Virus record (IMG/VR): IMGVR_UViG_3300037483_000964
Span: 1 to 61,392 of that record
DNA length: 61,392 nucleotides
Reading direction: 5' to 3' (one strand)
Origin: a virus
Lineage: Duplodnaviria > Caudoviricetes
Below are positions 1 through 45,150 of this stretch, piece after piece (position 1 is the first letter of the stretch; each line of letters starts with the position of its first letter). The notes under the pieces are model-generated. The model searched no databases, had not been told where the DNA came from, and was given only the letters and a program-made list of their open reading frames with translations. The translations under genes were made by a program, and so were the position numbers.

Positions 1-127
1 AGCCGGGATGCCTACATCCAGCGGCTGAAGGACCGCGGGCTCGTCGAAGTGCGCGGCAACCTGGTGCTCGCCGCGCGGGGCGCGGAGGAGCACCTGGGCG
101 AGTTCGAACCGCTGCCGACAGGCGGCG
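1..127. repeat. Exact terminal direct repeat (copy 1), circular assembly overlap
   Basis: 1-127 is identical to 61266-61392; the ATPase reading frame continues across the junction. Confidence 0.95.
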
Positions 128-3084: not shown

Positions 3085-3528
3085 GTGGCAAAGAAGCGAT
3101 TCACCCGGATCAAGAGCGTGGACCCCGACGACTTCCAGCTGATCGGCAGCGTCGGAACAGAAGTCCTGAGCGGCCCGCTGGACGAGGGCTGGCAGGCGAA
3201 ACGGGAATTCAACCTCGCTTTCCTCGAGACCGTTCCGGAGCTGCTGGCCCGGGCGGTCGAGAAGAAAGCGGTGCTCGAATCGCAGGAGGGCGTGCCGGAC
3301 CACTGGAAATGGCCGGGCGGTGAACAGCGGCTGCTCGCGTTCCGGCTGCTCGCCGATGCGCGGCTCGTCGAGGACGGCGTGGGTGGCATGGTCGCGTTCA
3401 GCCGCCTTTGGCTCGGCGGCCGGCGGTTCACAAAGGAGTGGAAGACGTTCAAGGCGTGGCTCGAGCACGCGGCGAAGTTGATCCGCGGCGAGGTCGAGCT
3501 GGACGCGCCGGTCGTGCCCTGGGAGTGA
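3085..3528 (+). CDS. Hypothetical protein
   Basis: GTG start after AAGGAG; protein-like composition (MAKKRFTRIKSVDPDDF...). Confidence 0.7.
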   Translation: MAKKRFTRIKSVDPDDFQLIGSVGTEVLSGPLDEGWQAKREFNLAFLETVPELLARAVEKKAVLESQEGVPDHWKWPGGEQRLLAFRLLADARLVEDGVGGMVAFSRLWLGGRRFTKEWKTFKAWLEHAAKLIRGEVELDAPVVPWE

Positions 3529-4237: not shown

Positions 4238-4870
4238 ATGATCCGGTTCACGGCCTACGGGACGCCGGCACCGGCCGGGAGCAAGCGTGGGTTTCCGGTC
4301 CGCGCCAAGGGCGGAAAGATCATGGTCCGGATGACCGACGACAGCAAGCGGGGGAAGCCGTGGCAAGCGGCCGTCCGGGCCGAGGCCGCAGAAGTCATGG
4401 CAGGCGCGCCACTGCTGAACGGCCCGCTGGAAGTCACGGCCACGTTCCACGTCCGGCGTCCCAAGGGCCATTACGGGGTGCGCGGACTCCGGCCCGCTGC
4501 CCCTGGGTGGCCGGCGGTCAAGCCGGACGCCGCGAAACTCTGGCGCGCGGTCGCCGACGCGCTGACCGGCGTGGTCTGGCGTGACGATGCGCAGGTCGTG
4601 GTGGAGCACGTCACGAAACAGTACGGCGAGCCGGAGCGGGTGGACGTTTCGGTGCAGGAGGCGGGGCACGTCAACCGGCTTGAATGCGTCGATCTGGAGC
4701 CCGAGTGGGGCCGTTGTGCATCACTATCCCATCCAAACGATGCGCAATCCCACGGGAAAGCGGGTCCTTCCCATCGAGCAACGATGGCGCAGGCGAAGCC
4801 CGCCCGACGTTTCGGTAGCCAGACTTTTCCACAGAACCCGGGTTTCCGTTTCAAGGACCCGCCGAAATGA
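4238..4870 (+). CDS. rusA: RusA-family Holliday junction resolvase
   Basis: GTPAPAGSKR and KPDAAKLWRAVADALTGVVWRDDAQVV signatures. Confidence 0.9.
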   Translation: MIRFTAYGTPAPAGSKRGFPVRAKGGKIMVRMTDDSKRGKPWQAAVRAEAAEVMAGAPLLNGPLEVTATFHVRRPKGHYGVRGLRPAAPGWPAVKPDAAKLWRAVADALTGVVWRDDAQVVVEHVTKQYGEPERVDVSVQEAGHVNRLECVDLEPEWGRCASLSHPNDAQSHGKAGPSHRATMAQAKPARRFGSQTFPQNPGFRFKDPPK

Positions 4871-5676
4871 CAGGAGCCAGGGCCCACCGCCCGCGCCAGG
4901 CCATCGTCGCCGCGGCCACCGTCCACCGCCGGCTGGACCGGCTCGCCCCGAAGCACCGGACGTGCGTCCGCCGGAGCCGCCACATCGCCGGCGGCGCGCC
5001 CAGCCTGGCGATGATCCGGCCGCTCACCTTCGAGCCGCTCATCGCCCCGGCCCGGGACGTCCTGGGCGGCGGCCCGCACGTCGCGCTCGTGTTGGGCGGC
5101 GCCGCGTCGCTCTGGTCGGACATCCGGGCCGTCGAGGCGCTGATCGGCGCGCACTGGGACACGATCGGCATCGTCATCGCCGTGAACATGGCGGGCGTCT
5201 ACTGGCCCGGCCGGCTCGACCACTGGGTCACGCTTCACCCCGAGTTCTACTTCGCGGGCGGCAACCCGACGCCCCGGACCGGGCCCTGGAAGTCGCTCCG
5301 GCGCGGCAACTCCGACTACTGGGTCTGGACGTTTGTCGGGTCGAAGCACGCGGCGTCCGTGCACCGCACCCTCAGCCATCCGGGCGGCGGTAGTGGGCTC
5401 CTGGCCGTGCACGTCGCGCTCCGGCTCGGCTGCCCGCGCATCGTGCTGGCCGGGATGCCCATCGACTCGGGTGCCCATTTCGACCGGCCCGGGAAGTGGA
5501 CCGCGGCCGACCGATTCCAACCGGAATGGGAAGCGGACGTCCCCAAGCTCGGTGGCCGGGTCCGCTCGATGAGCGGGTGGAGCGCGGGGTTGCTCGGCCG
5601 GCCGACGGCCGAATGGATCCGGGAGGGGATCAGTTTGCGGGGCGAGAAAATAGCGGTTTCTCGACCCGGAAATTGA
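4867..5676 (+). CDS. DUF115/MptE-like Rossmann-fold, putative glycosyltransferase-related protein (paralog 1; true start may be 5011)
   Basis: ALVLGGA, IAVN, DHWVTLHPE, SGLLAVHVALRLGCPRIVLAGMP; paralogous to the 14070 and 14597 ORFs. Confidence 0.6.
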   Translation: MTGARAHRPRQAIVAAATVHRRLDRLAPKHRTCVRRSRHIAGGAPSLAMIRPLTFEPLIAPARDVLGGGPHVALVLGGAASLWSDIRAVEALIGAHWDTIGIVIAVNMAGVYWPGRLDHWVTLHPEFYFAGGNPTPRTGPWKSLRRGNSDYWVWTFVGSKHAASVHRTLSHPGGGSGLLAVHVALRLGCPRIVLAGMPIDSGAHFDRPGKWTAADRFQPEWEADVPKLGGRVRSMSGWSAGLLGRPTAEWIREGISLRGEKIAVSRPGN

Positions 5677-5681
5677 AACGA

Positions 5682-5882
5682 AGTGGCGTGGCAGGGCGAA
5701 GCTTGGCCCGGTGCGGCGTGGCGTGGTGAGGCGCGGCAGGAGTGACAAGGCGAGGCTGGGTGAGTTGGGGCATGGATGGGTCGGGTCGGGTCTGACCAGA
5801 TGCGGTGGAGTGAGGCAGGAGTGACACGGTGTGGCGAGGCCCGGCGGGGTGCGGCGAGGTGCGATGTGTCGCGGCGCGGTCT
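5682..5882 (+). ncRNA. GGY-NN pentamer array 1 (candidate guide-RNA array, 3 segments)
   Basis: Segments of 10, 13 and 11 GGY-NN units separated by GGCAGGAGTGACA(A/C) at 5735-5748 and 5814-5827; intergenic. Confidence 0.8.
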
Positions 5883-5996
5883 GCCTGGTCGAAAGTGAAA
5901 AAGGGTGGGGGCCCTGGACGACCCCCGACCCTGTTGGGAAGCGCGGAGCATGGTGCCCGCGCTGGTTCGGCAACTTCAAGGTAAGGAAGGTATCCC

Positions 5997-6770
5997 ATGG
6001 CAGCAAGCAAGAAGGGCACAGCGGAGTCCGTAGACATCCTCAGGGTGCAGGAGGGCACGATCGCCTTCTGCATCGTCGGCCGCAGCCCGTTCGTCTGCAA
6101 CGCGATGAGCGCCAAGGTCCGACAGGGCCTGCTCAGCCCGGGCCCCAAGAAGGGCACCACGGAGAAGGGCGCGACCCTCAAGCACAACCCGCTCGAGGAG
6201 TACCAGCGGAGCGCGTACCGCTCGGTGGGCGATGCCGCGGAGACGCGCATCCAGTTCCTCGCGGCCGGCTTCAAGCGGGCGATGGCGAACGCTGCGCTGG
6301 AGATCCCGGGCACCAACAAGGCACAGATCGGTCGGCTGTGCTGGGCTGAGGGGATGTACGTCCCGATCTACGGGATCCCGCAGATGTGGATGAGCGTGAC
6401 CAGGAGCGCCGACATGAAGCGGACGCCGGACATCCGGACCCGCGCCATCATCTCCGAATGGGCGTCCCGCGTGACGGTCCGCTACGTCATTCCGAACCTT
6501 CGTGAACAGCCGGTCATCAACCTTATGGCTTCGGCGGGCGTGTTCATCGGCGTCGGCGACGGTCGGCCCGAGAAGGGCGCACTCTCCTTCGGCCAGTTCG
6601 AGGTGGTGGCTGAAGACGACGAGCGGTACCAGCGGATCCTCAAGACGGGTGGCCGCAAGGCGCAGGATGACGCCTTCGAGAATCCGACGTTCTACGATGT
6701 CGAGACGGAAGAGCTGTACGAGTGGTGGATCGCCGACGCCAAGCGGCGTGGCTTCAAGATCGTTGCCTGA
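5997..6770 (+). CDS. Stand-alone RAMP/Cas7-like RNA-binding protein (Vipr-like)
   Basis: N-terminal strand + GRSPFV, central AAGFKRAM helix, C-terminal glycine-rich loop AGVFIGVGDGRPEKGALSFGQFEV; RBS AAGGAAGG; flanked by GGY-NN arrays. Confidence 0.75.
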   Translation: MAASKKGTAESVDILRVQEGTIAFCIVGRSPFVCNAMSAKVRQGLLSPGPKKGTTEKGATLKHNPLEEYQRSAYRSVGDAAETRIQFLAAGFKRAMANAALEIPGTNKAQIGRLCWAEGMYVPIYGIPQMWMSVTRSADMKRTPDIRTRAIISEWASRVTVRYVIPNLREQPVINLMASAGVFIGVGDGRPEKGALSFGQFEVVAEDDERYQRILKTGGRKAQDDAFENPTFYDVETEELYEWWIADAKRRGFKIVA

Positions 6771-6783
6771 TCCCACGAATCCG

Positions 6784-6817
6784 ACCCGGGGCCCCACACG
6801 GTTGCGGGGCCCCGGGT
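6784..6817 (+). promoter_or_regulatory. Strong intergenic stem-loop
   Basis: Perfect 12-bp stem ACCCGGGGCCCC/GGGGCCCCGGGT; no poly-T tail. Confidence 0.55.
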
Positions 6818-6848
6818 TCGGGTTCCGGAAACCTGAAAGGAAGGAAGC

Positions 6849-7322
6849 GTGAACGGAGAAGCGCGAAAGACGAAGATCTACGAACGGCTTCAGGCGTTGG
6901 CGGCCGGCGGCCGCTTGACTGCCGAGGTCGTGCTCGCCGATGCGAAGAAGAAGAACAGCCCGCTGCATGGGGAGTTCGAGTGGGACGATTCAGTGGCGGG
7001 ACGTCGCTATCGTCTCGATCAGGCGCGCTCCATGATCGCATCGGTGAAGGTCTACATCGAGCGGCGGACCATGGTGATCGCGGTCCCGGTTTACACCCGT
7101 GACCCGGACGCCGAAAGCAAAGAGCAGGGCTACCGTTCAACCGCGACGCTCAAGACCGACCGGGAGAGGGCGCGCGATGCGCTCATCTCCGAGGCTGGCC
7201 GGGCTGCTGCGTACATGGGGCGGGTTCGGGCGTTGTCGGTTGCGCTCGACATGGAGGATGAAGTGGACGAGATCATCGGCCGGTTCGCTGCGTTCCGCAT
7301 GCGTGCCGAAGTATCGGCGTGA
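6849..7322 (+). CDS. Conserved phage protein, putative accessory partner of the RAMP-like gene
   Basis: LTAEVVLADAKKKNSPLHGEFEWDDSVAGRRYRLDQARSMI motif; RBS AAGGAAGG; lies between the RAMP-like gene and array 2. Confidence 0.75.
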   Translation: MNGEARKTKIYERLQALAAGGRLTAEVVLADAKKKNSPLHGEFEWDDSVAGRRYRLDQARSMIASVKVYIERRTMVIAVPVYTRDPDAESKEQGYRSTATLKTDRERARDALISEAGRAAAYMGRVRALSVALDMEDEVDEIIGRFAAFRMRAEVSA

Positions 7323-7328
7323 ATTTGT

Positions 7329-7634
7329 AGTGGCGTGGCACGGTCGGGCCGGGGATGGCGAGGTGCGGCCTGGTGCGGTCGGGCATGGTGCGGAGCGGGT
7401 GCGGCGTGGCAGGAGTGACAAGGTCGGGCCCGGAGCGGTGGGGAGCGGTTGGGTTAGGCTTGGCGAGGCCAGATGCGGCGTGGCGGGAATGATAAGGTGC
7501 GACACGGTGCGTTTGGGTGGGGATTGGATTGGCTTGGCCGGGCAAGGCATGCCGGGAGTGACATGGCGAGGCGCGATGAGGTTTGGCCGGGCGCGGCGGG
7601 GCTTGGCGCGGCGCGGCGCGGTATGGCGAGGCGG
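7329..7634 (+). ncRNA. GGY-NN pentamer array 2 (candidate guide-RNA array, 4 segments)
   Basis: Segments of 15, 12, 11 and 13 units; linkers GGCAGGAGTGACAA (7408-7421), GGCGGGAATGATAA (7482-7495), GCCGGGAGTGACAT (7551-7564); same AGTGGCGTGGCA start as array 1. Confidence 0.8.
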
Positions 7635-7657
7635 GCGTCACCTAACGAAAAAGGAAG

Positions 7658-7885
7658 ATGATGGGTGAGGCGAAGCGGAAGCAGGAGGCGGCACCGGCCG
7701 CCGACTATTCGCCCGGCGTCGTAAAGACGAAGGCCGGCGGCTTCTACTGGATCGACGCCGGAGGTCGGGTCTTCCGGATGCTCCGTGGCAGCCGGGTCCG
7801 GGAGCCGGCGGTCATCGCCGACGTGCAGGCGGTCGCGAAGATGCCGCCGACGGAACCGCCGCGAGTCCAGTTGGTCGAGCGGTGA
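7658..7885 (+). CDS. Hypothetical protein
   Basis: RBS AAGGA; translationally coupled to the next gene. Confidence 0.6.
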   Translation: MMGEAKRKQEAAPAADYSPGVVKTKAGGFYWIDAGGRVFRMLRGSRVREPAVIADVQAVAKMPPTEPPRVQLVER

Positions 7886-8523
7886 TCGACGTGGCCTGCG
7901 TGCTCCGGTCCGGCGGCGCGTACGACCCGCGGTGGGTCCACCGGCTCCGCGAGGCCGTGGCCCGGTACCTGCCGATCGAGCACCGCTTCGTCTGCCTGTC
8001 GGACGTGCCGGTCGGCGGCGACATCGTCCGCTACGCGCTGCCGGCCGGCTGGCGCGGCTGGTGGGCAAAGCAGGCGCTCTACCAACCCGGGCTCTTTCCG
8101 GGCCGCGTCCTCTACCTCGACCTGGACTCGCTCATCGTCGGCGACCTCTCGGAGCTGGCCGCGTACAACGGGCTCCGCGCCGTGCTTTCGGACTTCAACC
8201 AGCCGGCCATGATCGGGACCGGGATGATGATGTGGTGGGCCGACGCGATGGAGGACGTCTTCCGCCACTTCATAGTCGACCCGGGGAAGGTGATGGCGGC
8301 GTACCCGCGGCGGAGCGACCATTTCACGACGCAGGCGATGCGCACGCCGGCCGACCGGATCCAGTCGCTCTACCCGGGCCAGGTTGTCAGCTCGAAGCGG
8401 CACTGCCGGCAGGGCCCGCCGGCGGGCGCCCGGGTCATCTGCATGCACGGCCGGCCGCGGCTCACCGACCTCGCGCCGGATCACTGGATGCGTCTTACTT
8501 GGGAAGGGAGAGTTTACGCCTGA
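7882..8523 (+). CDS. GT-A fold glycosyltransferase (GT8-like)
   Basis: FVCLSD, GWWAK, VLYLDLDSLIVGDL (DxD), C-terminal MHGRPR. Confidence 0.8.
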   Translation: MIDVACVLRSGGAYDPRWVHRLREAVARYLPIEHRFVCLSDVPVGGDIVRYALPAGWRGWWAKQALYQPGLFPGRVLYLDLDSLIVGDLSELAAYNGLRAVLSDFNQPAMIGTGMMMWWADAMEDVFRHFIVDPGKVMAAYPRRSDHFTTQAMRTPADRIQSLYPGQVVSSKRHCRQGPPAGARVICMHGRPRLTDLAPDHWMRLTWEGRVYA

Positions 8524-9065
8524 TGGCGGGATTCTGGGGGAACGCGGTCTACCGCCGGCTCAACCCGGCCGTGCCGCAGCGGATGGCGGAGATCGGCGTG
8601 TTCGACGGCCAGAACTCGGGCTGGCTGCTCGCGCGCTGCCCGCTGCTCACGCTCTACATGATCGACCAGTGGAAGGCGTACCACGACAGTAGCCAGCCGG
8701 ACACGGTGCACAACCCCGGGAAGTGGGACCGCGTGCGCCGGATGGCGCTGGCGCGGACGGACTTCGCCGGGGCCCGCCGCATCGTGCTGCACCTGACGTC
8801 GCTGGAGGCCGCCGCGCAGATCGGCGCCGGCTTGCTCGACCTCGCGTTCATCGACGCCAACCACTCGCTGCCGTTCGTGGCCCGCGACATCGCTGCGTAC
8901 TGGCCGAAGGTGAAGCCCGGCGGCTGGCTCGCGGGCCACGACTACGAGCGGAAGGAGCCGCGCATCTACGGCGTCTGGCAGGCCGTGAACGAGTTCGCGG
9001 CGGCGCAGAAGCTGTCGCTCGAGGTGGACGAGGACGCCACCTGGTTCATCCGGAGGCCGACATGA
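8523..9065 (+). CDS. Class I SAM-dependent methyltransferase (Methyltransf_24-like)
   Basis: AEIGVFDGQNS, LDLAFIDANHS, KVKPGGWLAGHDY. Confidence 0.9.
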   Translation: MAGFWGNAVYRRLNPAVPQRMAEIGVFDGQNSGWLLARCPLLTLYMIDQWKAYHDSSQPDTVHNPGKWDRVRRMALARTDFAGARRIVLHLTSLEAAAQIGAGLLDLAFIDANHSLPFVARDIAAYWPKVKPGGWLAGHDYERKEPRIYGVWQAVNEFAAAQKLSLEVDEDATWFIRRPT

Positions 9066-9250
9066 ATCCTCTTCTTTCTTTTGGTGGGTTGCTGTTATCC
9101 GTGGCCATCGTACTCGTGAGCCTTTCCGTGCGGGACTTGCGTCGGAGGCTATCGTGCATGGACGCTCGCGTCCGGAAACTCGAACCGTGTAGGTTGTGCG
9201 GGCGCACGATGTGCAATCACGGGGACCGGCACTACCCGGCCAAGCCATGA
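9062..9250 (+). CDS. Small membrane-anchored protein
   Basis: N-terminal hydrophobic helix, C-terminal CxxC; ATGA-coupled on both sides. Confidence 0.55.
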   Translation: MNPLLSFGGLLLSVAIVLVSLSVRDLRRRLSCMDARVRKLEPCRLCGRTMCNHGDRHYPAKP

Positions 9251-9930
9251 CGCTTCCCGCCATCGTCGCCGATTACGCCACCCTGATCCGGGACCGCGTC
9301 CACTACGCGCAGGCCAATTACGGTGACGGCGAGTGGGCGTGTATGCTCGGACAGAGCGGCAAGAACTGCAACGGCGAGGTCTACCACCCGTATCTCGCGA
9401 GTCAGCTCCGGGAGACGCTCTACCGGCCCGTGGGCCAGTGGTGCGGTACGAATCCCGGGAAGCGGCTCCGCGTCGAGGCGGATCACTGGATCACCACCCG
9501 GAAGGTCGATGTGGAGTGGGCCGACAAGGAGGTCCTCGTCCGGGCGAACATCGAGGGGCGGCTCGGTTCCTGGCTCGAGGCCGTGCGGACGCGCCGGGTC
9601 GTGCTTGTCGGGCCGGCGCACCTGGCGGCGCTGAAACCAGAGGTGATCGGCGCGTTGACGTTCATCGGCGTCGCCCCGAACACGGCATGGGAGAATGCCG
9701 TCTCAACCAGCCGATCGGTGCTCCGCGCTGTCGCACCCGGTGACCTCGTGCTCTTCGCGGCCGGCATGGGGAGCAACCTCATGATCCACCGCCTCTGGCC
9801 GGAGCTTCGGGGTCAGGTGACGCTTCACGACGTGGGTGCGTTGCTCGACCCCTACGTCGGCGTCTGGTCTCGGAACCCGTACCGGGACGCCGCATGGCAG
9901 CGCGACGTCCTGCCGCTGAACCTCGCATGA
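9247..9930 (+). CDS. GT-D fold (DUF1792-like) glycosyltransferase, paralog 1
   Basis: NYGDGEW, VLVGP, LFAAGMGS, DVGALLDPY; close paralog at 13027. Confidence 0.7.
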   Translation: MTLPAIVADYATLIRDRVHYAQANYGDGEWACMLGQSGKNCNGEVYHPYLASQLRETLYRPVGQWCGTNPGKRLRVEADHWITTRKVDVEWADKEVLVRANIEGRLGSWLEAVRTRRVVLVGPAHLAALKPEVIGALTFIGVAPNTAWENAVSTSRSVLRAVAPGDLVLFAAGMGSNLMIHRLWPELRGQVTLHDVGALLDPYVGVWSRNPYRDAAWQRDVLPLNLA

Positions 9931-10520
9931 AGCGCTGGTTCGATCTGCTCGTCGAGTGCCGCTACCCGGCGGACAAGACCTTCCACCTGGGCCAGCATCG
10001 CGGGACGGTCGGTTGGGACCATCCTGACGTTCGCGCCCACTTCGAGTCGAAGCACCGGATCGCGGCCGCGCTGCAACCCCGGCGCATCATCGAGATCGGC
10101 GTCCGGTGCGGCTACTCGGCGTGGGCGATGCTCTCGGCCGTGCCCCGGGCGTCCTACCTCGGCATCGACAACCGGGACCCGGCGTACGGTGACGGCGCCG
10201 CGTTCGCGGCGCACGCCGCCGGGCTGCTCGAGGGTTTCGCCGGCGCGCGGTTCTTGAACGCGAACTCGCGGGAGTTGGTCGATCTGCCGCCGCCCGTTGC
10301 GGACCTCGTCCACGTGGATGGCGACCACAGTTTTGAGGGCGCGCAGCACGACATCGAGCTCGCGCTCCGGAGCGGCGCCCGGTGGGTCCTGATCGATGAC
10401 ACCGACTATCTCGATCTCGTCCGGTCCGCTGCGACTTCCGCGGCCCGCGGCCGGCTCGCGTTCGACCTCCGGGAGCCGCTCCGGGGCGCCGTACTGATCT
10501 GGAATGGGAGTGAGGGATGA
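9927..10520 (+). CDS. Class I SAM-dependent methyltransferase (Methyltransf_24-like)
   Basis: IEIGVRCGYS, YLGID, DLVHVDGDHS, VLIDD. Confidence 0.85.
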   Translation: MKRWFDLLVECRYPADKTFHLGQHRGTVGWDHPDVRAHFESKHRIAAALQPRRIIEIGVRCGYSAWAMLSAVPRASYLGIDNRDPAYGDGAAFAAHAAGLLEGFAGARFLNANSRELVDLPPPVADLVHVDGDHSFEGAQHDIELALRSGARWVLIDDTDYLDLVRSAATSAARGRLAFDLREPLRGAVLIWNGSEG

Positions 10521-10816
10521 GCGATTCCGACGAAGCGAAGGCGGGAAAGAAGGATGACGACCGGGTGGTTGTGGGCGGGTTCATCTTTAGTATCACAGAG
10601 TTCCAGGACGAGGCGCGGGTGACGATCGAACTCAAGTTCTCCGGAGGGGATTCGATCCGGTTCGTGGAGGGGGGTTCGCTCCGGAGAGTCGAGGTTTCCG
10701 AATACCTGCGGAACCTTGCTCCCTCTGACTATATCGAGGTTACCATGCGGTGGGTGGATGACTTCGAGCTTGAAGGCCCGGACTCCTGGTTCATCGAGCC
10801 CTCGCCGAAGGGCTGA
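10517..10816 (+). CDS. Hypothetical acidic protein
   Basis: ATGA coupling; protein-like ORF. Confidence 0.55.
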   Translation: MSDSDEAKAGKKDDDRVVVGGFIFSITEFQDEARVTIELKFSGGDSIRFVEGGSLRRVEVSEYLRNLAPSDYIEVTMRWVDDFELEGPDSWFIEPSPKG

Positions 10817-10819
10817 GCC

Positions 10820-11620
10820 ATGAACGTCATCCTTCCATTCCGCGGCGAGCTCGGGATGAAGCTCTGGTGGCACGCGCCAGCCACGTTCGCGGTTGCCAGC
10901 CCGAAGGTGATCTACTGCGAGGAAGGCGAGGAGGCGCTCTATCCGGGCGCCGAACGGTGGATCCCCGTCGCCCGGAACGAGGATGGCCGCCGCCGGAATC
11001 ACTACCACCGGGACTCCGAGTTCGTCGGCGCCGTGGAGTTGGTAGCCCGGGCGCGCTTCGGCGCGAGCGCCAAGTACCTGAAGCCCGACCAGAAGTGGCC
11101 ACGCAAGCGGTTCGCCCCCGTTCCGCACGAGACAGTCGAAGTCGACTGCGACGTCGTCGTCTGCCCCCGGAAACGGAACTACGGTGCCGGCAAGAACTGG
11201 GACGAGTGGCCGGCCCTCACGGCACGGCTGACAGCCGAGGGGCTCCGGGTGTTCGCCGGCGGTGCGGCGGACTCGAGCTACGATGTGCCGTGCGAGAAAG
11301 CCTGGGACCACGAGCGGAACCTGGACGCGACGATCGCGGCCATGCACTCCGCCCGGGTCGTGGTCGCGACCGATGCCGGGCTTGCGCACCTCGCGGTCCT
11401 CTGCGGCCGGCCACTCGTCATGGTCACCTACGGCGCCGGGCTCGTAGCGCCGGGTAGCGTCGATGACGAGAACGGCCGGCCGATGGAGCCCTGCTACTGG
11501 CCGGTCAAGATGGAGCGGTACCGGGAGGAGAACCATCTCGGATCGCCGATCACGCTGGTGCATCATGGGTGGGAAGAGCCGGACCGTGTTCTACGTGAAA
11601 CGCTGGAGGCGGTGAAATGA
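10820..11620 (+). CDS. GT9 (heptosyltransferase-like, GT-B) glycosyltransferase
   Basis: GELG, KNWDEWPAL, VVATDAGLAHLAVLCGRPLV. Confidence 0.8.
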   Translation: MNVILPFRGELGMKLWWHAPATFAVASPKVIYCEEGEEALYPGAERWIPVARNEDGRRRNHYHRDSEFVGAVELVARARFGASAKYLKPDQKWPRKRFAPVPHETVEVDCDVVVCPRKRNYGAGKNWDEWPALTARLTAEGLRVFAGGAADSSYDVPCEKAWDHERNLDATIAAMHSARVVVATDAGLAHLAVLCGRPLVMVTYGAGLVAPGSVDDENGRPMEPCYWPVKMERYREENHLGSPITLVHHGWEEPDRVLRETLEAVK

Positions 11621-19423: not shown

Positions 19424-21029
19424 CCCCTTCCGCGTTGCGGCGCTCGACTCCGGCTTCGTCTCCGATGGTGGTGGCTCGTCCGCGTACATGGGCGCCATCG
19501 CGAACCGGCTCACTGCCGACTGGGCGTTCGCGGCCATCGAGTCCGCCGACCAGGAGATTCGGGGCGGGATCCGGACGCTCCGGGCTCGGGCCCGGGAACT
19601 CCACCGCAACAACGAGCTCGCGGCTTCCTACGTGCAGCTCATTGAGGACCAGGAGATCGGGCACGAGGGGATCCGGCTGCAGGCGTACGTGAAGCGTCCC
19701 GGCGGACTCCTCGACATGGGCATCAACGAGCGCATCGAGGAAGCCTGGGCCGAGTGGTGCGAGAAGCAGAACTGCACGGTCGATGGCCGCCTGCCTTTCG
19801 CCGAGGTCCTCGCCCTGCTTGCTGGCAACCGTGCGATCGACGGCGAATACCTGGTGCGGATGCTGCCGACGATGGAGAACCGGTTCGGCTTCGCGCTCCA
19901 GATTTTCGACCCGGACCAACTCGATGTCGAGTACAACCGTGAGCCGGGCAACGGCAAGAACGAGATCCGGATGGGCGTCGAGATCGACGCGTTCCGGCGG
20001 CCGGTCGCCTACTGGGTCTGGGATCACCACCCGTCCGAATACGGAGTCCGTGGTCAGCGCCAGGTCCGGATCCCGGCCGATCAGATTCTCCACAATTTCC
20101 GGGCCGGTCCCCGCGTCAATGCGACGCGCGGCGTGACCTGGTTCCACCCGGCGTTGTACAAGCTCAAGATGCTGGCCGGCTACGAGGAGGGCGAGGTCGT
20201 CGGGATGCGGCTCACGGCGACCGCCGGCGGCTTCTTCCAGACCGTACCGGAAGCGGTCCGCGATACGAACGCGCCGAAGACGGATCAGGACTTCAACTTC
20301 AGCGCCGAGCCCGGTGCCTATCCGAAACTCCCGCCCGGCTGGACCTACATCGAACGCGACCCGAAGCACCCGACGGACGCCTACAACGAGTTTCACAAGG
20401 CGATGATTCGCGGCATCTGCGCGGGCCTCGGTGTCACCTACACGTCGGTCACGCACGATCTCTCTGACGTGAATTACGGCTCGATGCGGGGCGGGTTGCT
20501 CGGCGAGCGTGACATGTGGCGCCGCTGGCAGTGGATCGACATCCGGCACTTCTGTCAGCCCGTCTATCGCAACTGGTTCCGCTACGCCGAGCTCACGGGC
20601 GCGCTCAAGCTCCCCGACCGGAACCGCGCCCGCTGGAGCCGTCACCGCTGGCAGCCGCGCGGGTGGCCGTGGATCGACCCGCTGAAGGATGTGCAGGCGG
20701 CGGCGCTCGAGGTGCGGCTCGGTGTGAACAGCCTGACCCGGATCTGCGCCGAGCGGGGGCTCGACTTCGAGGAAGTGCTCTCGGACCGGGCCATGGAGAT
20801 CGGGCTCGCCCGGGAGCTGGGCGTCGACATTTCGACCGAAATATCGAAGTCGGCGACGGAGACGACCCCGGAGCGCGAACCGGAAGAGCCTGAGCCTGAT
20901 GCGCGCTGGCGGTGGCAGGACGAAGAGGATGACGAGGCGCCGCTGCTCCGGCGCGAATCGCGGCTGTTCGCGCGGATCCTCGCCCGACGGGAGCTCGCCG
21001 CGCTGAACGGAAACGGGGGGACGCCATGA
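19416..21029 (+). CDS. Portal protein (lambda gpB family)
   Basis: LRARARELHRNN, IRMGVEIDAFRRPVAYW, DLSDVNYGSMR, WPWIDPLKDVQA. Confidence 0.95.
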   Translation: MRNPFRVAALDSGFVSDGGGSSAYMGAIANRLTADWAFAAIESADQEIRGGIRTLRARARELHRNNELAASYVQLIEDQEIGHEGIRLQAYVKRPGGLLDMGINERIEEAWAEWCEKQNCTVDGRLPFAEVLALLAGNRAIDGEYLVRMLPTMENRFGFALQIFDPDQLDVEYNREPGNGKNEIRMGVEIDAFRRPVAYWVWDHHPSEYGVRGQRQVRIPADQILHNFRAGPRVNATRGVTWFHPALYKLKMLAGYEEGEVVGMRLTATAGGFFQTVPEAVRDTNAPKTDQDFNFSAEPGAYPKLPPGWTYIERDPKHPTDAYNEFHKAMIRGICAGLGVTYTSVTHDLSDVNYGSMRGGLLGERDMWRRWQWIDIRHFCQPVYRNWFRYAELTGALKLPDRNRARWSRHRWQPRGWPWIDPLKDVQAAALEVRLGVNSLTRICAERGLDFEEVLSDRAMEIGLARELGVDISTEISKSATETTPEREPEEPEPDARWRWQDEEDDEAPLLRRESRLFARILARRELAALNGNGGTP

Positions 21030-23662
21030 CGGAGAGTCGCCGCATCCTGAACGCGTTCGGGTCGGCCGCCTGGGCGATGGAAGAATCGAAGCTCGAGGCG
21101 ATCTGCGCGTTCCTGGAGTTCCGCGCCAAGGGCGGCCAGCTCTCACGCGAGGAAGTGAAGGCGGTGACCGCTGCCCGCGCCGGCCAGATCAAAGCCGGTG
21201 GCGGTGTCGTCGTAATCCCGATCGTCGGCGTGATCACGCAGCGCGCAAACCTGCTGTCGGAGTACTCGGGCGGCACGTCCACGGAAAAGCTCGCCGCGCA
21301 GATCGACCAGGCGCTCGCGTCGCCAGATATCAGTGCCATCGTCTTCGACATCGACAGCCCGGGCGGCGACGTCTCGGGAGTCCCGGAGATCGCGGCCAAG
21401 ATCTACGCCGCGCGGGGGAAGAAACGAACCATCGCCGTCGTCAATTCTGCGATGCACTCAGCCGCCTACTGGATCGGCTCGGCGGCGGAAGAGATCGCGA
21501 TCACGCCCTCCGGCATGGCGGGCTCGATCGGTGTGCTCTGGGTCCACACCGAGTACTCCGAGATGGAAGCGGCGCTCGGCATCAAGACCACGATCCTCCG
21601 AGCGGGCAAGTACAAGGCCGAAGGCAATCCCGTCGAGCCACTCTCCGACGGCGCCCGCGACCGGATGCAGGCCATCGTCGACGACTACTACGAGGACTTC
21701 GTCGCCGCGGTCGCCCGTCACCGCGGCACCACGGCGGAAGCGGTCCGGACGGGCTACGCGCAGGGCTCGATCCTCACGGCGAAGCGGGCCGTCGCAGAGG
21801 GCCTTGCCGACCGGGTCGCGACGCTTGAGGCCGTGCTCGCCGAGCTTGGCATCCAGCCCGCCACGCTCTCAATGGCCCGCGCGAAGGCGGCCGAAGAGCT
21901 GGCGCGCGAGATGGCCGCCGCCGCCGCGGCGTCGGATACCGGACACGCGATCGCGGTCTCCGTCGAGCTGGCGGGCGAAGAGGCATGCGCAGCTGCTGCG
22001 TGTCGCATGGCGCCGCTCGCCGTCCCCGCCGTGGCGCTCATGCCCGTCGCCGAGCATCACGAAATGCCGGATCCGCCGATGGAGCCGGACATGCCACCGG
22101 ACGGCGAAGACCACGACGAGGACGAGGACGAAGAGGAAACGGCCGCGGGAGATCCCGTGCCGGAGGACGACACGGCCGATGCGGTTCATGGGGGCGACCG
22201 CCCGGCAACTGCTGTGCCCTCAAACACCGACGCGGCCCAAGCCGCAAGGGAGGCAAGGATGGCCGTTGACACGGCTGCGGTCCCGGGTGGGGCCGATTCG
22301 GGCGTGCTGGTCGCGGAGCGCGACCGGGTGCGCGGCATCATGGCGCTCGCGAAGGATCCCAAGTGGAATGTCTCGCCCGAACGCGCGGAGGCCTGGATCG
22401 CGAACGGGGTGTCCGAAGCGGAGGCCTCCCGCGAAATCCTGCGAGAGCAGACGAACGCGTGGGGCAAGCCGATCGGCGCACCGGCGCCGGCCGAAGTGCT
22501 CGACTGGGCCCACGAGGACCAGCAGCGCTTCTCCATCGTGCGTGCGATCAACGCGGCGGCCGACAACGACTGGTCGAACGCCAAGTTCGAGCGGGACGTC
22601 ATGGCCGAGACGCAGAAGAAGCTCGGCTACCAGTCCAGGGTCGGGAGCAATGGCCCGGGCGGCGGGAAGATCCGCGGCAATTCCATCATCATCCCGACGG
22701 CGCTGTCCGCGCTGCCGGCGGAGTACGTGGAGCGGGCCCGGGCGACCGCGCGGGAGATGGGCAGGCCGTTCGAAATGCCGCGGCCCCGCGGCGCGCTCAC
22801 CTCGGCCGGCGCGACGGCCGGCGCCGAGCTCGTGTTCACGGAGCCCGGATCGTTCATCGAGATGCTCCGCAACCGGATGGTGACGACCCAGATGGGCGCC
22901 ACTTTCCTGCCGGGCCTTCAGGGCAACGTCGACTTCCCGCGCCAGACCGCGGCGGGGACGTTCAGCTGGAGGGCGGAGAACCCGGGCACCAACGTGTCGT
23001 TGACGGACCTGACGACCGGGTCCGTGGAGCTCCGGCCGAACGACGGCACGTCCGCGACGTCCTACTCGCGGCGACTGCTCGCGCAGTCGGTGATCAACGT
23101 CGAGATGCTGGTCCGCGATGACCTGACCTCGATCGCCGCCATCGGGCTGGACCTGGCGGCGTTGCACGGCGCGGGCGGCAGCGAGCCGACCGGGCTGTAC
23201 TCGCAGTCGGGCGTGAACACGGTGGCCTTCAACGGCGTCGTGACGTACCCGAAGATCGTCGAGATGGAGACGGACATCGTCGCGAGCAACGCGGACCTCT
23301 GGCGGATGGGCTACGTGACCACGCCCGAGATCCGGGGTGCCGCGAAGACCACGCAGAAGTTCGCCAGCACGAACGGCGACCCCATCTGGACGGGGAGCGT
23401 GCTGGAAGGCGACATGAACGGCTACCGGTCGATGGCCTCCAACCAGGCCAGCAAGACGCTCGGCTCGGGCGCCGAACACGCGATCTTCTTCGGCGCGTGG
23501 CAGCATCTGCTCGTCGGTGAGTGGGGCGCGATGGAGCTGATCGTGGACCCGTACACGCTGGCGCGGCAGGGGCTCATCATCGTCGTGATCTTCCTGATCG
23601 CGGACATCGCGGTGCGCTACCCGGCGGCGTTCTGTGTCGGGACGAACCTGCAGCTGACGTAA
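21026..23662 (+). CDS. Fused S49 prohead protease - acidic linker - HK97-fold major capsid protein
   Basis: DIDSPGGDV, SAAYWIGS, GSIGV (S49); capsid part with FSIVRAINA, GNVDFPRQT, ELIVDPYT; in-frame internal ATG at 22259 with AGGGAGG. Confidence 0.9.
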   Translation: MTESRRILNAFGSAAWAMEESKLEAICAFLEFRAKGGQLSREEVKAVTAARAGQIKAGGGVVVIPIVGVITQRANLLSEYSGGTSTEKLAAQIDQALASPDISAIVFDIDSPGGDVSGVPEIAAKIYAARGKKRTIAVVNSAMHSAAYWIGSAAEEIAITPSGMAGSIGVLWVHTEYSEMEAALGIKTTILRAGKYKAEGNPVEPLSDGARDRMQAIVDDYYEDFVAAVARHRGTTAEAVRTGYAQGSILTAKRAVAEGLADRVATLEAVLAELGIQPATLSMARAKAAEELAREMAAAAAASDTGHAIAVSVELAGEEACAAAACRMAPLAVPAVALMPVAEHHEMPDPPMEPDMPPDGEDHDEDEDEEETAAGDPVPEDDTADAVHGGDRPATAVPSNTDAAQAAREARMAVDTAAVPGGADSGVLVAERDRVRGIMALAKDPKWNVSPERAEAWIANGVSEAEASREILREQTNAWGKPIGAPAPAEVLDWAHEDQQRFSIVRAINAAADNDWSNAKFERDVMAETQKKLGYQSRVGSNGPGGGKIRGNSIIIPTALSALPAEYVERARATAREMGRPFEMPRPRGALTSAGATAGAELVFTEPGSFIEMLRNRMVTTQMGATFLPGLQGNVDFPRQTAAGTFSWRAENPGTNVSLTDLTTGSVELRPNDGTSATSYSRRLLAQSVINVEMLVRDDLTSIAAIGLDLAALHGAGGSEPTGLYSQSGVNTVAFNGVVTYPKIVEMETDIVASNADLWRMGYVTTPEIRGAAKTTQKFASTNGDPIWTGSVLEGDMNGYRSMASNQASKTLGSGAEHAIFFGAWQHLLVGEWGAMELIVDPYTLARQGLIIVVIFLIADIAVRYPAAFCVGTNLQLT

Positions 23663-44311: not shown

Positions 44312-44722
44312 TTGCAGGAATCCTCTCCCCGATCGATGGCGCAAAGCGCTATGGCCAGAATCGAGCGCATGTCACACCTTCCCTCTATCTTCGGTTCGCC
44401 CGCCGGTGCCTCCCCAGCTCCGTGGCCACCCGCCCACACGCCTCTGATGGAGGAGCCCGTGGAAGCCGTATACCGCGTAACCGCGCCCATCCCCGAGATC
44501 GGCGCCGAGCCTGGGGACGTCCTGGTCGCCGACCCCTCCGATCCTGAACTTCCGTTCGTTCTCTCCCGGAAGCTTGCTCGTGGCGCCATGTCCATCATCC
44601 TCACAGACGAGCACGTCATCCTGTGCGATCTTTCGGGCGGAGCACCTTCGGCTGTCCCCGCTTCCCCTTCGTGCCCAGTCGGCCGGCGTCGTCGGGCCCG
44701 GCATCTTCGGCTGGTAGGGTAA
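44312..44722 (+). CDS. Hypothetical protein (start uncertain), convergently overlapping the repressor 3' end
   Basis: Protein-like core (EIGAEPGDVLVADP), ends HLRLVG. Confidence 0.35.
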   Translation: MQESSPRSMAQSAMARIERMSHLPSIFGSPAGASPAPWPPAHTPLMEEPVEAVYRVTAPIPEIGAEPGDVLVADPSDPELPFVLSRKLARGAMSIILTDEHVILCDLSGGAPSAVPASPSCPVGRRRRARHLRLVG

Positions 44723-45041
44723 CCCGATAGCGGTCAATCACCGCAGCGATCTCCCGCAGCGCCAACTGGCTAGTTTCGGGTGCGGGGTCGACGTCGACGC
44801 TTCCCTCTCCCGTCAATAGCCACGCAGCCCGCGCCGATGCAAGCTCGGCCACCGCGAGGATGAGATCGGCCCGCGGCTGAGACTCGCCTCGTTCGATCCG
44901 GCCGAGGAGGGTATGGCTTTCTACCGCTACGCCCATGGCCTCAAGTCGGACCGCCAAGTCCCGTTGCGAGAGGCGTAAGCGTTTGTCCCTCAACCACTTC
45001 AGCCTATCGCCCGGCGTTTCTGACGGTCTTGTTGGTCCCAT
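44616..45041 (-). CDS. XRE-family HTH repressor (cI-like)
   Basis: GDRLKWLR..LSQRDLAVRL..LGRIERGESQP..AWLLTGEG; divergent from the early operon. Confidence 0.85.
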   Translation of the reverse strand: MGPTRPSETPGDRLKWLRDKRLRLSQRDLAVRLEAMGVAVESHTLLGRIERGESQPRADLILAVAELASARAAWLLTGEGSVDVDPAPETSQLALREIAAVIDRYRVTLPAEDAGPDDAGRLGTKGKRGQPKVLRPKDRTG

Positions 45042-45104
45042 GGCGCACCAAAAGGGTTGACGGCGGACCAAACGTTCCGCATATTGGTCCACCAGCGCAC
45101 CAAA
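45032..45104. promoter_or_regulatory. Genetic switch: two 20-bp operators and a rightward sigma70-like promoter
   Basis: TTGGTCC-N6-GCACCAA at 45032-45051 and 45084-45103; TTGACG(45057)-17 bp-CATATT(45080). Confidence 0.7.
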
Positions 45105-45150
45105 CGGGGCCGCGGCGGCCCACGTCGTACCCAAACGGCTAACGGTAAGC

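What the first reader, a model, noticed from the sequence alone, without database searches (positions are those of the whole stretch)
5682..7653. Candidate RNA-guided system: lone RAMP/Cas7-like gene and partner flanked by segmented GGY-NN pentamer arrays
Seen: two intergenic tracts (5685-5882, 7332-7634) with 5-nt periodicity, made of a near-constant triplet plus a variable dinucleotide. By my count 67 of 85 units have an exact GGY; the other 18 are one- or two-base variants, and there is one single-base slip at 7397. The tracts enclose just two genes: a 257-aa protein with RAMP-like features (GRSPFV near the N-terminus, C-terminal Gly loop GVFIGVGDGRPEKGALSFGQF) and a 157-aa protein (SPLHGEFEWDD). 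No cas1/2/3, Cas nuclease gene or classical CRISPR array is present. Known: RAMP/Cas7 proteins polymerise along guide RNAs with a fixed nucleotide step. Inference: one protomer binds each GGY and displays NN, so each segment is a guide that specifies a gapped target, probably for repressing rival phages or host genes. It matches my recollection of recently reported phage VIPR systems (Vipr protein plus GGY/NN RNAs); that link should be verified.
Basis: partly seen in the sequence, partly recalled or inferred. Interest (0 to 1): 0.97.

Follow-up and report, generated by a model that had tools for sequence, protein, structure and literature searches.

The report
Phage VIPR RNA-guided silencing locus
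This complete high-GC phage genome carries a VIPR system: a Cas7-like protein, a small partner gene and two arrays of GGY-NN pentamer guide RNAs. VIPR was first described in 2026, so this is a real but expected new member of a known kind.

Summary

**Arrays.** The two tracts (5685-5882, 7332-7634) are the only places in the 61-kb record with phased GGY pentamers, and they occur on the + strand only.

**Relatives.**
- 74 of 97 related loci carry such arrays beside the gene pair on the gene strand, and 0 of 97 on the other strand.
- 90 of 97 keep the 157-aa partner.

**Context.** The record is a complete tailed phage, and no Cas1, Cas2 or Pfam-RAMP family match or CRISPR array was found.

**Anatomy.** There are seven guide segments of 10-16 units, joined by 1-nt-overlap (-1 slip) boundaries. 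This matches the published "staggered" array form, and there is no structured tail.

**Open points.** No natural target was found and no self-target exists. Transcription could not be tested. The VIPR type number could not be assigned because the supplements were closed.

Verdict: new member of a known kind, moderate interest.

The parts
5685..5882 (+). Upstream vrRNA array with three guide segments: S1 5685-5738 (10 units + GGCA), S2 5739-5817 (15 units + GGCA), S3 5818-5882 (13 units).
   Evidence: Lag-5 identity 0.52; strict GGY-phase detector; register parse.
5735..5748 (+). Boundary 1: 4-nt unit GGCA (-1 slip, i.e. 1-nt overlap) followed by the conserved non-GGY units GGAGT GACAA. A second copy lies at 5814-5827 (GGCA GGAGT GACAC).
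   Evidence: The -1 slip is the clade's usual boundary: 268 of 322 boundaries.
5997..6770 (+). vipr: a 257-aa RAMP (Cas7-like) protein. Beta-1 motif G28-P31, thumb hairpin about 128-152 with R149, G-loop 185-199 (GVGDGRPEKG), and a C-terminal helical extension 204-257.
6777..6826 (+). Strong GC-rich hairpin in the 78-nt vipr-vap spacer. Its role is unknown (attenuator or stability element?).
   Evidence: RNA fold of 6768-6850 gives -47.7 kcal/mol, z -3.96, with 0 of 200 shuffles folding as well.
6849..7322 (+). vap-like accessory gene: 157 aa, GTG start. N-terminal alpha/beta domain with the SPLHxxFEWDD motif, plus a C-terminal helical hairpin.
   Evidence: phrog_15946, E 7e-15. Syntenic homologue in 90 of 97 relatives. 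AF2 pLDDT 81. Only weak winged-helix-like Foldseek rows, E >= 0.16. No similarity to SUSP1 Vap1.
7332..7634 (+). Downstream vrRNA array with four guide segments: S4 7332-7411 (13 units, +1 slip at 7397, 2 units, GGCA), S5 7412-7485 (14 units + GGCG), S6 7486-7554 (13 units + GCCG), S7 7555-7634 (16 units).
   Evidence: Lag-5 identity 0.54; detector; parse; 69-79-nt segment repeat family.
7408..7421 (+). Boundary 3: GGCA + GGAGT GACAA. Further boundaries lie at 7482-7495 (GGCG + GGAAT GATAA) and 7551-7564 (GCCG + GGAGT GACAT).
   Evidence: These elements show no significant fold, z -0.84 to +0.84.

Best explanation
This is a VIPR (Viral Interference Programmable Repeat) system carried by a complete, roughly 61-kb, 68.5% GC tailed phage.

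**Proposed mechanism.** The two intergenic arrays are transcribed on the gene strand and cut or initiated at the 1-nt-overlap boundaries. This would yield seven vrRNAs of about 50-80 nt. Copies of the 257-aa Vipr RAMP polymerise along each RNA, one protomer per pentamer. Each GGY is clamped by the thumb Arg (R149) and the G-loop (D188, R190), and the NN dinucleotides are displayed. The filament binds double-stranded DNA whose sequence matches NN-x-NN-x (1-nt skip) and silences transcription there. The most probable target is a competing phage, satellite or prophage. The 157-aa partner is an accessory DNA-interacting factor that enhances the effect.

**Shown here:** the array anatomy and its strand specificity; the RAMP fold; homology to a tested Vipr with the key residues conserved; conservation of the gene pair plus arrays across relatives; the phage context; the absence of self-targets.

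**Inferred from published work on type II VIPR (SUSP1, P. fulva):** transcription, one protomer per repeat, the 1-nt-skip reading of dsDNA, and repression.

**Unknown:** how the boundaries are processed, what is targeted, and what the partner does.
For: 1. **Arrays.** 94 in-register units, 66 exact GGY, with entropy rising from 0.15 to 1.98 bits across the pentamer. They are the only such tracts in the record and lie on the + strand only.
3. **Homology to a tested Vipr.** hhalign of the 35-sequence family profile against SUSP1 Vipr gives 94%, E 1.4e-7 over thumb to G-loop. SUSP1 R138, D177 and R179, named as GGY readers with R138A and D177A abolishing silencing, align to R149, D188 and R190, which are invariant or nearly so.
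4. **Co-occurrence in relatives.**
   - 51 of 81 loci have strict arrays on the gene strand, against 0 of 81 on the other strand and 0 of 81 shuffles.
   - With a 6-of-8 rule, 74 of 97 have arrays near the pair and 0 of 97 on the reverse strand; 90 of 97 keep the partner.
   - The detector also finds SUSP1's own arrays, which serves as a positive control.
5. **Boundaries.** 268 of 322 inter-run boundaries in the clade are a -1 slip. This fits the published legend for 'staggered' arrays with 1-nt overlaps.
6. **Context.** 127-bp direct terminal repeat. Terminase, portal and protease-capsid genes are present. CheckV completeness is 100. No Cas1, Cas2 or Pfam RAMPs match.
7. **No self-target.** The best 1-nt-skip self matches are 62-75% NN. 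None reaches 80% and none exceeds the shuffled-guide null, as the authors report for their own systems.
8. **NN composition.** It fits codon positions 1-2 in sense best of six phases: -3.70 against -3.91 to -4.61 bits per unit. This is suggestive only.
Against: - **No natural target found.** Exact 1-nt-skip cores of five of the seven guides (S2, S4, S5, S6, S7) gave either no IMG/VR hit or only hits whose extension into the rest of the guide is at chance: 1-3 of 8, and 3 of 12.
- **No hit on relatives.** No window guide matches related VIPR loci above null.
- **Skip rule not validated for this clade.** In a pooled test of 70 of 104 clade guides against about 1 Mb, no skip length exceeded the shuffled-guide nulls.
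- **Residue differences.** The G2-stacking Trp of SUSP1 (W178) is Gly here, and the G1-reading His (H17) is Asn.
- **No SUSP1-like tail.** There is no structured 3' tail.
- **Partner unrelated to Vap1.** hhalign probability is 0.06%, and its fold match to DNA binders is weak (E >= 0.16).
- **Degenerate units.** 28 of 94 units are not exact GGY.
Confidence: 0.88

Rival explanations
1. This is a Vipr-like RAMP with pentamer guide RNAs that reads targets differently from the published type II systems. It might target RNA, as type III Cas7 backbones do, or use another skip length. It might also aim at host genes rather than rival elements.
For: The closest solved folds are RNA-targeting Csm3/Cas7-11. 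No 1-nt-skip target was found, and skip 1 did no better than skips 0, 2 or 3 in the pooled clade test. The G-loop Trp is replaced by Gly, and a C-terminal helical extension absent from SUSP1 Vipr is present.
Against: The null results come from very small or exact-match-only searches (about 1 Mb locally; exact cores in IMG/VR). The authors report 1-nt-skip targets for types II, III and V. The GGY-clamping residues are conserved. NN composition fits codon positions 1-2, which suits a wobble skip.
Confidence: 0.07
2. The locus is a decaying or inactive VIPR relic: the arrays and genes persist but no longer function.
For: 28 of 94 units deviate from GGY, with S6 and S2 the most degenerate. No targets were found. 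The exact boundary motif is private to this phage: 0 of 34 IMG/VR hits lie in arrays.
Against: Both ORFs are intact with coding GC3 (0.89 and 0.78). All family-invariant residues are present. The authors note frequent internal degeneracy in working vrRNAs. Exact-GGY fractions in relatives are similar, 0.81-0.85.
Confidence: 0.03
3. The tracts act as DNA rather than RNA. They could be G-rich structure-forming or iteron-like sites bound by the 157-aa protein, or they could be translated as Gly/Arg-rich ORFs, as one database record annotates a homologous array.
For: Open frames run through the arrays, e.g. 7099-7668. In Gordonia phage UmaThurman the homologous array is annotated as a CDS. GG every 5 nt could in principle form two-tetrad quadruplexes; this is my own inference.
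Against: A 5-nt period with -1 slips cannot keep a reading frame. The array part lacks the coding GC3 signature (0.74/0.69/0.74 against 0.60/0.47/0.89 for vipr). Strict strand specificity relative to the RAMP gene (0 of 97 on the other strand) and hypervariable NN fit a transcribed guide. In SUSP1 such tracts are experimentally shown to be RNAs bound by Vipr.
Confidence: 0.02

Closest known systems
Type II VIPR of Escherichia phage SUSP1 (KT454805.2; vipr 28474-29061, vap1 28031-28471, - strand)
   Same: - Two-gene vipr-vap operon in a phage, with GGY-NN pentamer arrays in the upstream and downstream intergenic regions on the gene strand.
- Homologous thumb-to-G-loop region with R138/D177/R179 equivalents.
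- No self-targets.
   Different: - Only 19% identity in the alignment. The Vipr here is 257 aa against 195 aa, with a C-terminal three-helix extension.
- The G-loop reads GDGR instead of GDWR, and Asn replaces His17.
- SUSP1 vrRNAs each end in a roughly 40-nt structured tail. The segments here abut through 1-nt-overlap boundaries, and no significant structure was predicted at them.
- The partner is unrelated to Vap1 by sequence.
VIPR systems with 'staggered' vrRNA arrays (discovery preprint, legend of fig. S18)
   Same: [quoted passage not shown] All five internal boundaries here, and 268 of 322 in the clade, are exactly such a -1 register slip.
   Different: I saw only the legend, because figures and supplementary tables were closed. 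I therefore cannot say which of the seven types this is, nor whether its boundary (4-nt unit plus the conserved GGAGT GACAN) is among the published examples. In most relatives the boundary is a bare GGCA|GGC.
Type III CRISPR backbone subunit Csm3/Cas7 (e.g. 6IFN chain E)
   Different: - No CRISPR array and no Cas1, Cas2 or Pfam RAMPs match.
- 5-14% sequence identity.
- 5-nt step with 2 read bases, against a 6-nt step with 5 read bases.
- Published VIPR targets dsDNA without cleavage.
Homologues in named actinophages (Mycobacterium phage Quico gp57, Gordonia phage UmaThurman gp39) and Cyanophage Cy-LDV1
   Same: 26-27% identical over 70-80% of the protein. The same beta-1, thumb and G-loop motifs are present. 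Adjacent GGC-NN arrays carry GGCA|GGC slips.
   Different: These proteins are shorter (about 200 aa) and lack the C-terminal extension. They have a single array, placed next to the lysogeny switch genes. All are annotated as hypothetical proteins.

Membership tests
VIPR system | Homology to an experimentally characterised Vipr, with the GGY-contacting residues. | tested here: met
   hhalign of A1 against SUSP1 Vipr gives 94%, E 1.4e-7 over 51 columns. R138, D177 and R179 are conserved as R149, D188 and R190. W178 is Gly and H17 is Asn. So 3 of 5 named G1/G2/Y3 contact residues checked are identical.
VIPR system | Tandem GGY/NN (YNNGG) pentamers flanking vipr on its strand: at least 4 units, with 9-16 per vrRNA in type II. 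| tested here: met
   Seven segments of 10-16 units. 66 of 94 units are exact GGY. They are unique in the record and lie on the + strand only.
VIPR system | GGY conserved while NN is hypervariable. | tested here: met
   Entropy is 0.15/0.72/1.45 bits at G-G-Y against 1.72/1.98 at NN, with 15 of 16 dinucleotides used. Relatives show the same scaffold with different NN.
VIPR system | vrRNA architecture: an invariant structured 3' tail (type II), or staggered 1-nt-overlap arrays, or hammerhead-interspersed arrays. | tested here: met
   The staggered form is met: all five internal boundaries are -1 slips, and the same holds clade-wide for 268 of 322. The tail form is not met, as boundary folds give z -0.84 to +0.84. 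No hammerhead or other Rfam family reaches even E <= 0.01 in 5400-7900; the two listed rows are sub-threshold.
VIPR system | Minimal locus of vipr plus one vap gene, without cas genes or a CRISPR array. | tested here: met
   Two genes lie between the arrays. The partner is syntenic in 90 of 97 relatives. No Cas1, Cas2 or Pfam RAMPs match and no CRISPR-like repeats.
VIPR system | The accessory gene belongs to one of the published vap1-6 families. | not testable with these tools
   It is not vap1 (hhalign 0.06%). The vap2-6 sequences sit in closed supplements. The fold gives only weak winged-helix-like rows, E >= 0.16, and the wide search is dominated by the C-terminal helical hairpin.
VIPR system | Predominantly viral or proviral context. 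| tested here: met
   Complete phage: 127-bp DTR, terminase, portal and capsid. 470 relatives occur in IMG/VR. Only 1 of 401 sampled genomes of one phylum has a match, and that one is the centre genome itself.
VIPR system | Arrays are transcribed into small RNAs that co-purify with Vipr. | not testable with these tools
This needs sRNA-seq and a pull-down.
VIPR system | Guides match natural dsDNA targets under the 1-nt-skip rule (>= 80% NN) and do not self-target. | tested here: inconclusive
   No self-target: best 62-75% NN, within the null. No external target was found in exact-core IMG/VR scans of 5 of 7 guides or in about 1 Mb of related loci. The host pangenome was not searchable because the host is unknown.
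CRISPR-Cas (type III/VII Cas7 backbone) | A Cas7-family RAMP encoded with other cas genes and a repeat-spacer CRISPR array. | tested here: not met
   The fold is shared. However, there is no Cas1, Cas2 or Pfam RAMPs match in the whole record and no repeat-spacer array.

The most novel reading that the evidence does not exclude
This very large, almost purely viral Vipr clade has 1486 clusters at 50% identity. It includes mycobacteriophage and Gordonia phage members that the main text of the four VIPR preprints never mentions (supplements not seen). It may be a VIPR form whose logic differs from the characterised type II in three ways.

1. The arrays are tail-less. Guide ends are set by a 1-nt pentamer overlap and, in this phage, by two conserved non-GGY 'punctuation' units (GGAGT GACAN). 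These units may phase filament assembly or mark a cleavage site, in place of an RNA-structured handle.
2. The Vipr has an extra C-terminal three-helix domain and lacks the G2-stacking Trp.
3. The accessory protein (SPLHxxFEWDD motif, winged-helix-like domain plus coiled coil) is unrelated to Vap1 and may not be among vap1-6.
Probability: 0.25. Interest if true: 0.5.

Novelty: new member of a known kind. Interest (0 to 1): 0.35.

Why it matters
VIPR is a months-old discovery: an RNA-guided, non-contiguous DNA-recognition system proposed as an ancestor of the CRISPR RAMPs. This locus adds a clean, complete-genome example from a high-GC phage.

- It has seven guides in the staggered array form, which has not been studied experimentally in the texts I read.
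- It belongs to a clade that is far larger in viral metagenomes than in the cellular genomes sampled here: 470 IMG/VR relatives, against 1 of 401 sampled genomes of one phylum, that one being the centre genome itself.
- That clade reaches into well-studied actinophages, where the arrays are unannotated or mis-annotated as genes. This offers tractable hosts such as M. smegmatis or Gordonia for testing boundary processing and the unknown accessory protein.

It does not change the picture of what VIPR is.

Tried and rejected
**Sequence-only naming of the two proteins**
- Pfam gave nothing for the 257-aa protein and one sub-threshold TIR row for the partner.
- PHROGs gave only families of unknown function.
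- PDB sequence searches found nothing useful.
- The protein atlas returned only viral hypothetical clusters.

**Closer relatives, to see guide turnover**
- The genome-contig scan with the single protein found 1 locus at 39% identity.
- The metagenome scan found 16 loci, the best at 56%.

**The boundary motif as a probe for sister arrays or orphan vrRNAs**
- There were 34 single IMG/VR hits, and 0 of 34 lie inside a GGY array. This is roughly my rough estimate for chance and was not computed by a tool.

**Targets**
- Self-scan: one search had S5-S7 one base out of register. redid it correctly, and nothing exceeded the null.
- Window guides against 97 related loci: nothing above the null at skips 0-3.
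- IMG/VR exact cores: S4 with 20 bases, which included two conserved start units, and S7 with 20 bases each gave 0 hits. S4 with 18 bases gave 8 hits, four of them one identical element. S2 gave 1 hit, S6 gave 3 and S5 gave 0. All extensions were at chance.
- Pooled clade test: I tested 70 of 104 unique guides of at least 11 units against 1.03 Mb. No skip length stood out.

**Host inference**
- A 401-genome sample of the phylum of the one cellular hit gave only that hit.
- DNA similarity to named phages is limited to short capsid/protease stretches of Burkholderia, Pseudomonas and Bradyrhizobium phages.

**Other checks**
- G-loop W/F/G variants against array quality: no difference, 0.85/0.81/0.84 exact GGY.
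- Partner fold: Foldseek rows are weak, and the VIA wide search was dominated by the helical hairpin. I call it only 'winged-helix-like, inconclusive'.

**Rejected readings**
- Coding Gly/Arg-rich ORFs: no coding GC3 signature, and the slips break any frame.
- A CRISPR mini-array: no repeat-spacer structure.
- Ribozyme-interspersed arrays: no Rfam hammerhead.


Full report
**The observation**

The two intergenic tracts are real and far from chance.
- Self-identity at lag 5 is 0.52 (5685-5882) and 0.54 (7332-7634). Lags that are not multiples of 5 give 0.25-0.35, and the neighbouring gene gives 0.24 at lag 5.
- A strict detector (at least 7 of 8 GGY at one phase) fires only inside these tracts in the whole 61,392-base record, and only on the + strand.
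- In register I count 94 pentamers, of which 66 are exact GGY. Per-position entropies are 0.15, 0.72, 1.45, 1.72 and 1.98 bits.
- The +1 slip at 7397 is there.
This amounts to a 1-nt overlap of two pentamers. It is followed by two conserved non-GGY units, GGAGT GACAN (GGAAT GATAA at one boundary).
- This divides the arrays into seven segments of 10-16 units, with a 69-79-nt period.

**What VIPR is**

The library holds four 2026 preprints.

From the discovery paper (10.64898/2026.04.26.720920) I read the abstract, the whole Results, Methods sections 18, 20, 26 and 27, and passages that include supplementary figure legends.
- VIPR consists of a minimal RAMP (Vipr), an accessory gene (vap1-6) and vrRNAs of tandem YNNGG repeats in the flanking intergenic regions. 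It is mostly found in phages.
- NN dinucleotides read double-stranded DNA with one skipped base per repeat, and binding represses transcription.
- Seven types are described, with tail-capped, 'staggered' (1-nt overlapping) or hammerhead-interspersed arrays.

From the structure paper (10.64898/2026.04.26.720927; abstract and section 5):
- One protomer binds each repeat.
- G1 is read by H17 and D177. G2 is read by R138 (thumb) and W178. Y3 is read by R179 among other residues.
- R138A and D177A abolish silencing.

From the competition paper (10.64898/2026.10.15.759431; abstract, section 17 and passages) I took the guide-scanning method and its nulls.

From 10.64898/2026.10.21.760802 I read passages only. 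It reports 99 VIPR-like clusters with 5-nt periodicity.

**The protein**

Sequence libraries give the 257-aa protein no name.
- It belongs to a very large unannotated family: 979 hits in the 90%-clustered database. Among 50% representatives there are 1486 clusters at E <= 0.001 and 337 at E <= 1e-30.
- An AlphaFold2 model built from a 35-sequence alignment is confident (pLDDT 82.6, pTM 0.79).
- Foldseek against the PDB gives 36 hits at E <= 0.001. The listed ones are Csm3, type VII Cas7, Cas7-11/gRAMP and Cmr subunits.

**A direct link to a tested Vipr**

I fetched phage SUSP1 (accession recalled, confirmed by the record).
- Its VIPR block is the pair at 28031-29061 on the - strand.
- My detector finds arrays there on that strand only, which serves as a positive control.
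- The family profile aligns to SUSP1 Vipr with 94% probability and E 1.4e-7, from the thumb to the G-loop.
- SUSP1 R138, D177 and R179 align with R149, D188 and R190 here. These are invariant or nearly invariant in the family.
- W178 is Gly here; the family has W in 71 loci, F in 11 and G in 12. H17 is Asn here but His in the actinophage versions.
- The W/F/G state does not track array quality.
- This clade's Vipr also has a roughly 55-residue C-terminal helical extension that SUSP1, Quico and UmaThurman lack.

**Homologues and their arrays**

- IMG/VR holds 470 relatives, of which I examined the best 80 plus one genome locus. Of these 81, 51 have strict arrays on the gene's strand, 0 have them on the opposite strand, and 0 of 81 shuffles do. 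79 of 81 have the 157-aa partner.
- After adding 16 metagenome loci and relaxing the rule to 6 of 8, 74 of 97 have arrays beside the pair: 67 downstream, 11 between the genes and 11 upstream. None of the 97 has arrays on the reverse strand, and 90 of 97 keep the partner. Some loci are cut by contig ends, so these are lower bounds.
- Between successive runs, 268 of 322 boundaries are a -1 slip, typically GGCA|GGC. This matches the legend of the paper's 'staggered arrays', in which vrRNAs come from 1-nt overlapping positions.
- The window's boundary is that slip plus the GGAGT GACAN units. The exact motif is private to this phage in IMG/VR: 0 of 34 hits lie in arrays.
- The boundary elements have no significant predicted fold (z -0.84 to +0.84). 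No hammerhead or other Rfam family is present.

**Context**

- The record closes on a 127-bp direct terminal repeat. It is 68.5% GC and encodes nearly everything on one strand.
- It has a large terminase, a portal and a protease-capsid gene.
- It is listed as a virus record with CheckV completeness 100.
- No Cas1, Cas2 or Pfam RAMPs model matches, although the controls give hits. There is no repeat-spacer array. Cas3 was not searched.
- There is no close named phage.
- The Vipr clade was found in only the centre genome of 401 sampled genomes of one phylum. With these queries it looks mainly viral.

**The partner**

- The 157-aa protein (phrog_15946) has a conserved SPLHxxFEWDD motif.
- Its model is confident (pLDDT 81): an N-terminal alpha/beta domain and a C-terminal helical hairpin.
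- It is unrelated to SUSP1 Vap1 by profile (0.06%) and to any PDB sequence.
- Foldseek gives only weak rows (E >= 0.16), nearly all of them winged-helix DNA binders. The wide structural search is dominated by the helical hairpin.
- I read it as a vap-type accessory factor, possibly DNA-binding, whose family assignment is open.

**Targets**

Using the published scan (NN joined by one wildcard, identity over informative positions, shuffled-guide null):
- No guide self-targets. The best matches are 62-75% NN, all within the null of 200 shuffles (which corrects the register error).
- No guide hits the 97 related loci above the null at any skip length.
- Exact-core scans of IMG/VR for five of the seven guides gave nothing, or gave hits whose extension is at chance.
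- A pooled test of 70 of 104 clade guides against 1.03 Mb shows no excess at any skip length.

These searches are weak. They either demand exact matches or use a tiny database, and the host is unknown. They leave the target question open rather than counting against function. One mild positive is that NN composition fits codon positions 1-2 in sense better than the five other phases, as a wobble-skip reading of coding DNA would predict.

**Not tested**

No sigma-70-like promoter consensus was found, which says little for a high-GC host.

**Verdict**

- It is a new member of a known kind, in the staggered-array form.
- Function as an RNA-guided DNA silencer is inferred from type II systems, with about 0.88 confidence.
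- The type number and vap family could not be assigned because the supplementary tables were closed.
- In two full-text searches, no paper in the library co-mentions vrRNA or Vipr with mycobacteriophage or actinobacteriophage in its main text.

Noticed in passing
window 6777-6826 (+): A very stable GC-rich hairpin fills the vipr-vap spacer: -47.7 kcal/mol, z -3.96, with 0 of 200 shuffles folding as well. In some relatives that spacer holds an array instead.
   Followed up: partly
L134:3117-3432 (Gordonia phage UmaThurman, NC_031249.1): The GGY-NN array just downstream of the Vipr homologue (gp39) coincides with the annotated CDS gp40, 'hypothetical protein' (locus 3125-3448). This is probably a mis-annotated vrRNA array.
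   Followed up: partly
L135:2108-2329 (Mycobacterium phage Quico, NC_028751.1): A 220-nt GGC-NN array with GGCA|GGC slips sits in the unannotated 397-nt gap upstream of gp57, the Vipr homologue, beside the cro/antirepressor region. tblastn finds homologues in 31 named phage records: 25 Mycobacterium, 5 Gordonia and 1 cyanophage, some of them RefSeq/GenBank duplicates. No library paper links these phages to VIPR in its main text.
   Followed up: partly
window 5683-5695 and 7330-7342: Both arrays begin with the same 11 bases (GTGGCGTGGCA), each preceded by a locally AT-richer stretch. The first two units (GGCGT GGCA) resemble the units that precede internal boundaries. These are candidate transcription-start or processing signals.
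   Followed up: no
window 5794-5803 and 7462-7471: The 10-mer CCAGATGCGG recurs near the 3' end of segments S2 and S5. This suggests the conserved boundary element extends about 20 nt upstream of the slip.
   Followed up: no
window 1-127 and 61266-61392: A 127-bp direct terminal repeat closes the record, so the genome is complete or circularly permuted. There are no tRNA genes.
   Followed up: yes
window 21026-23662 (+): A single 878-aa ORF matches both the head maturation protease (residues 5-500) and the major head protein (388-875). It is a protease-capsid fusion.
   Followed up: no
window 44633-44713 and 45032-45122: Two pairs of imperfect direct repeats (22 and 39 nt, spaced 59 and 52 nt) lie in what looks like a gene-poor stretch. 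They may be operator or origin iterons.
   Followed up: no
window 7882-11620: Just downstream of the VIPR locus is a run of glycosyltransferase-like and other modification-type genes; 7882-8523 matches phrog_1962, glycosyltransferase. RusA lies just upstream at 4238-4870.
   Followed up: no
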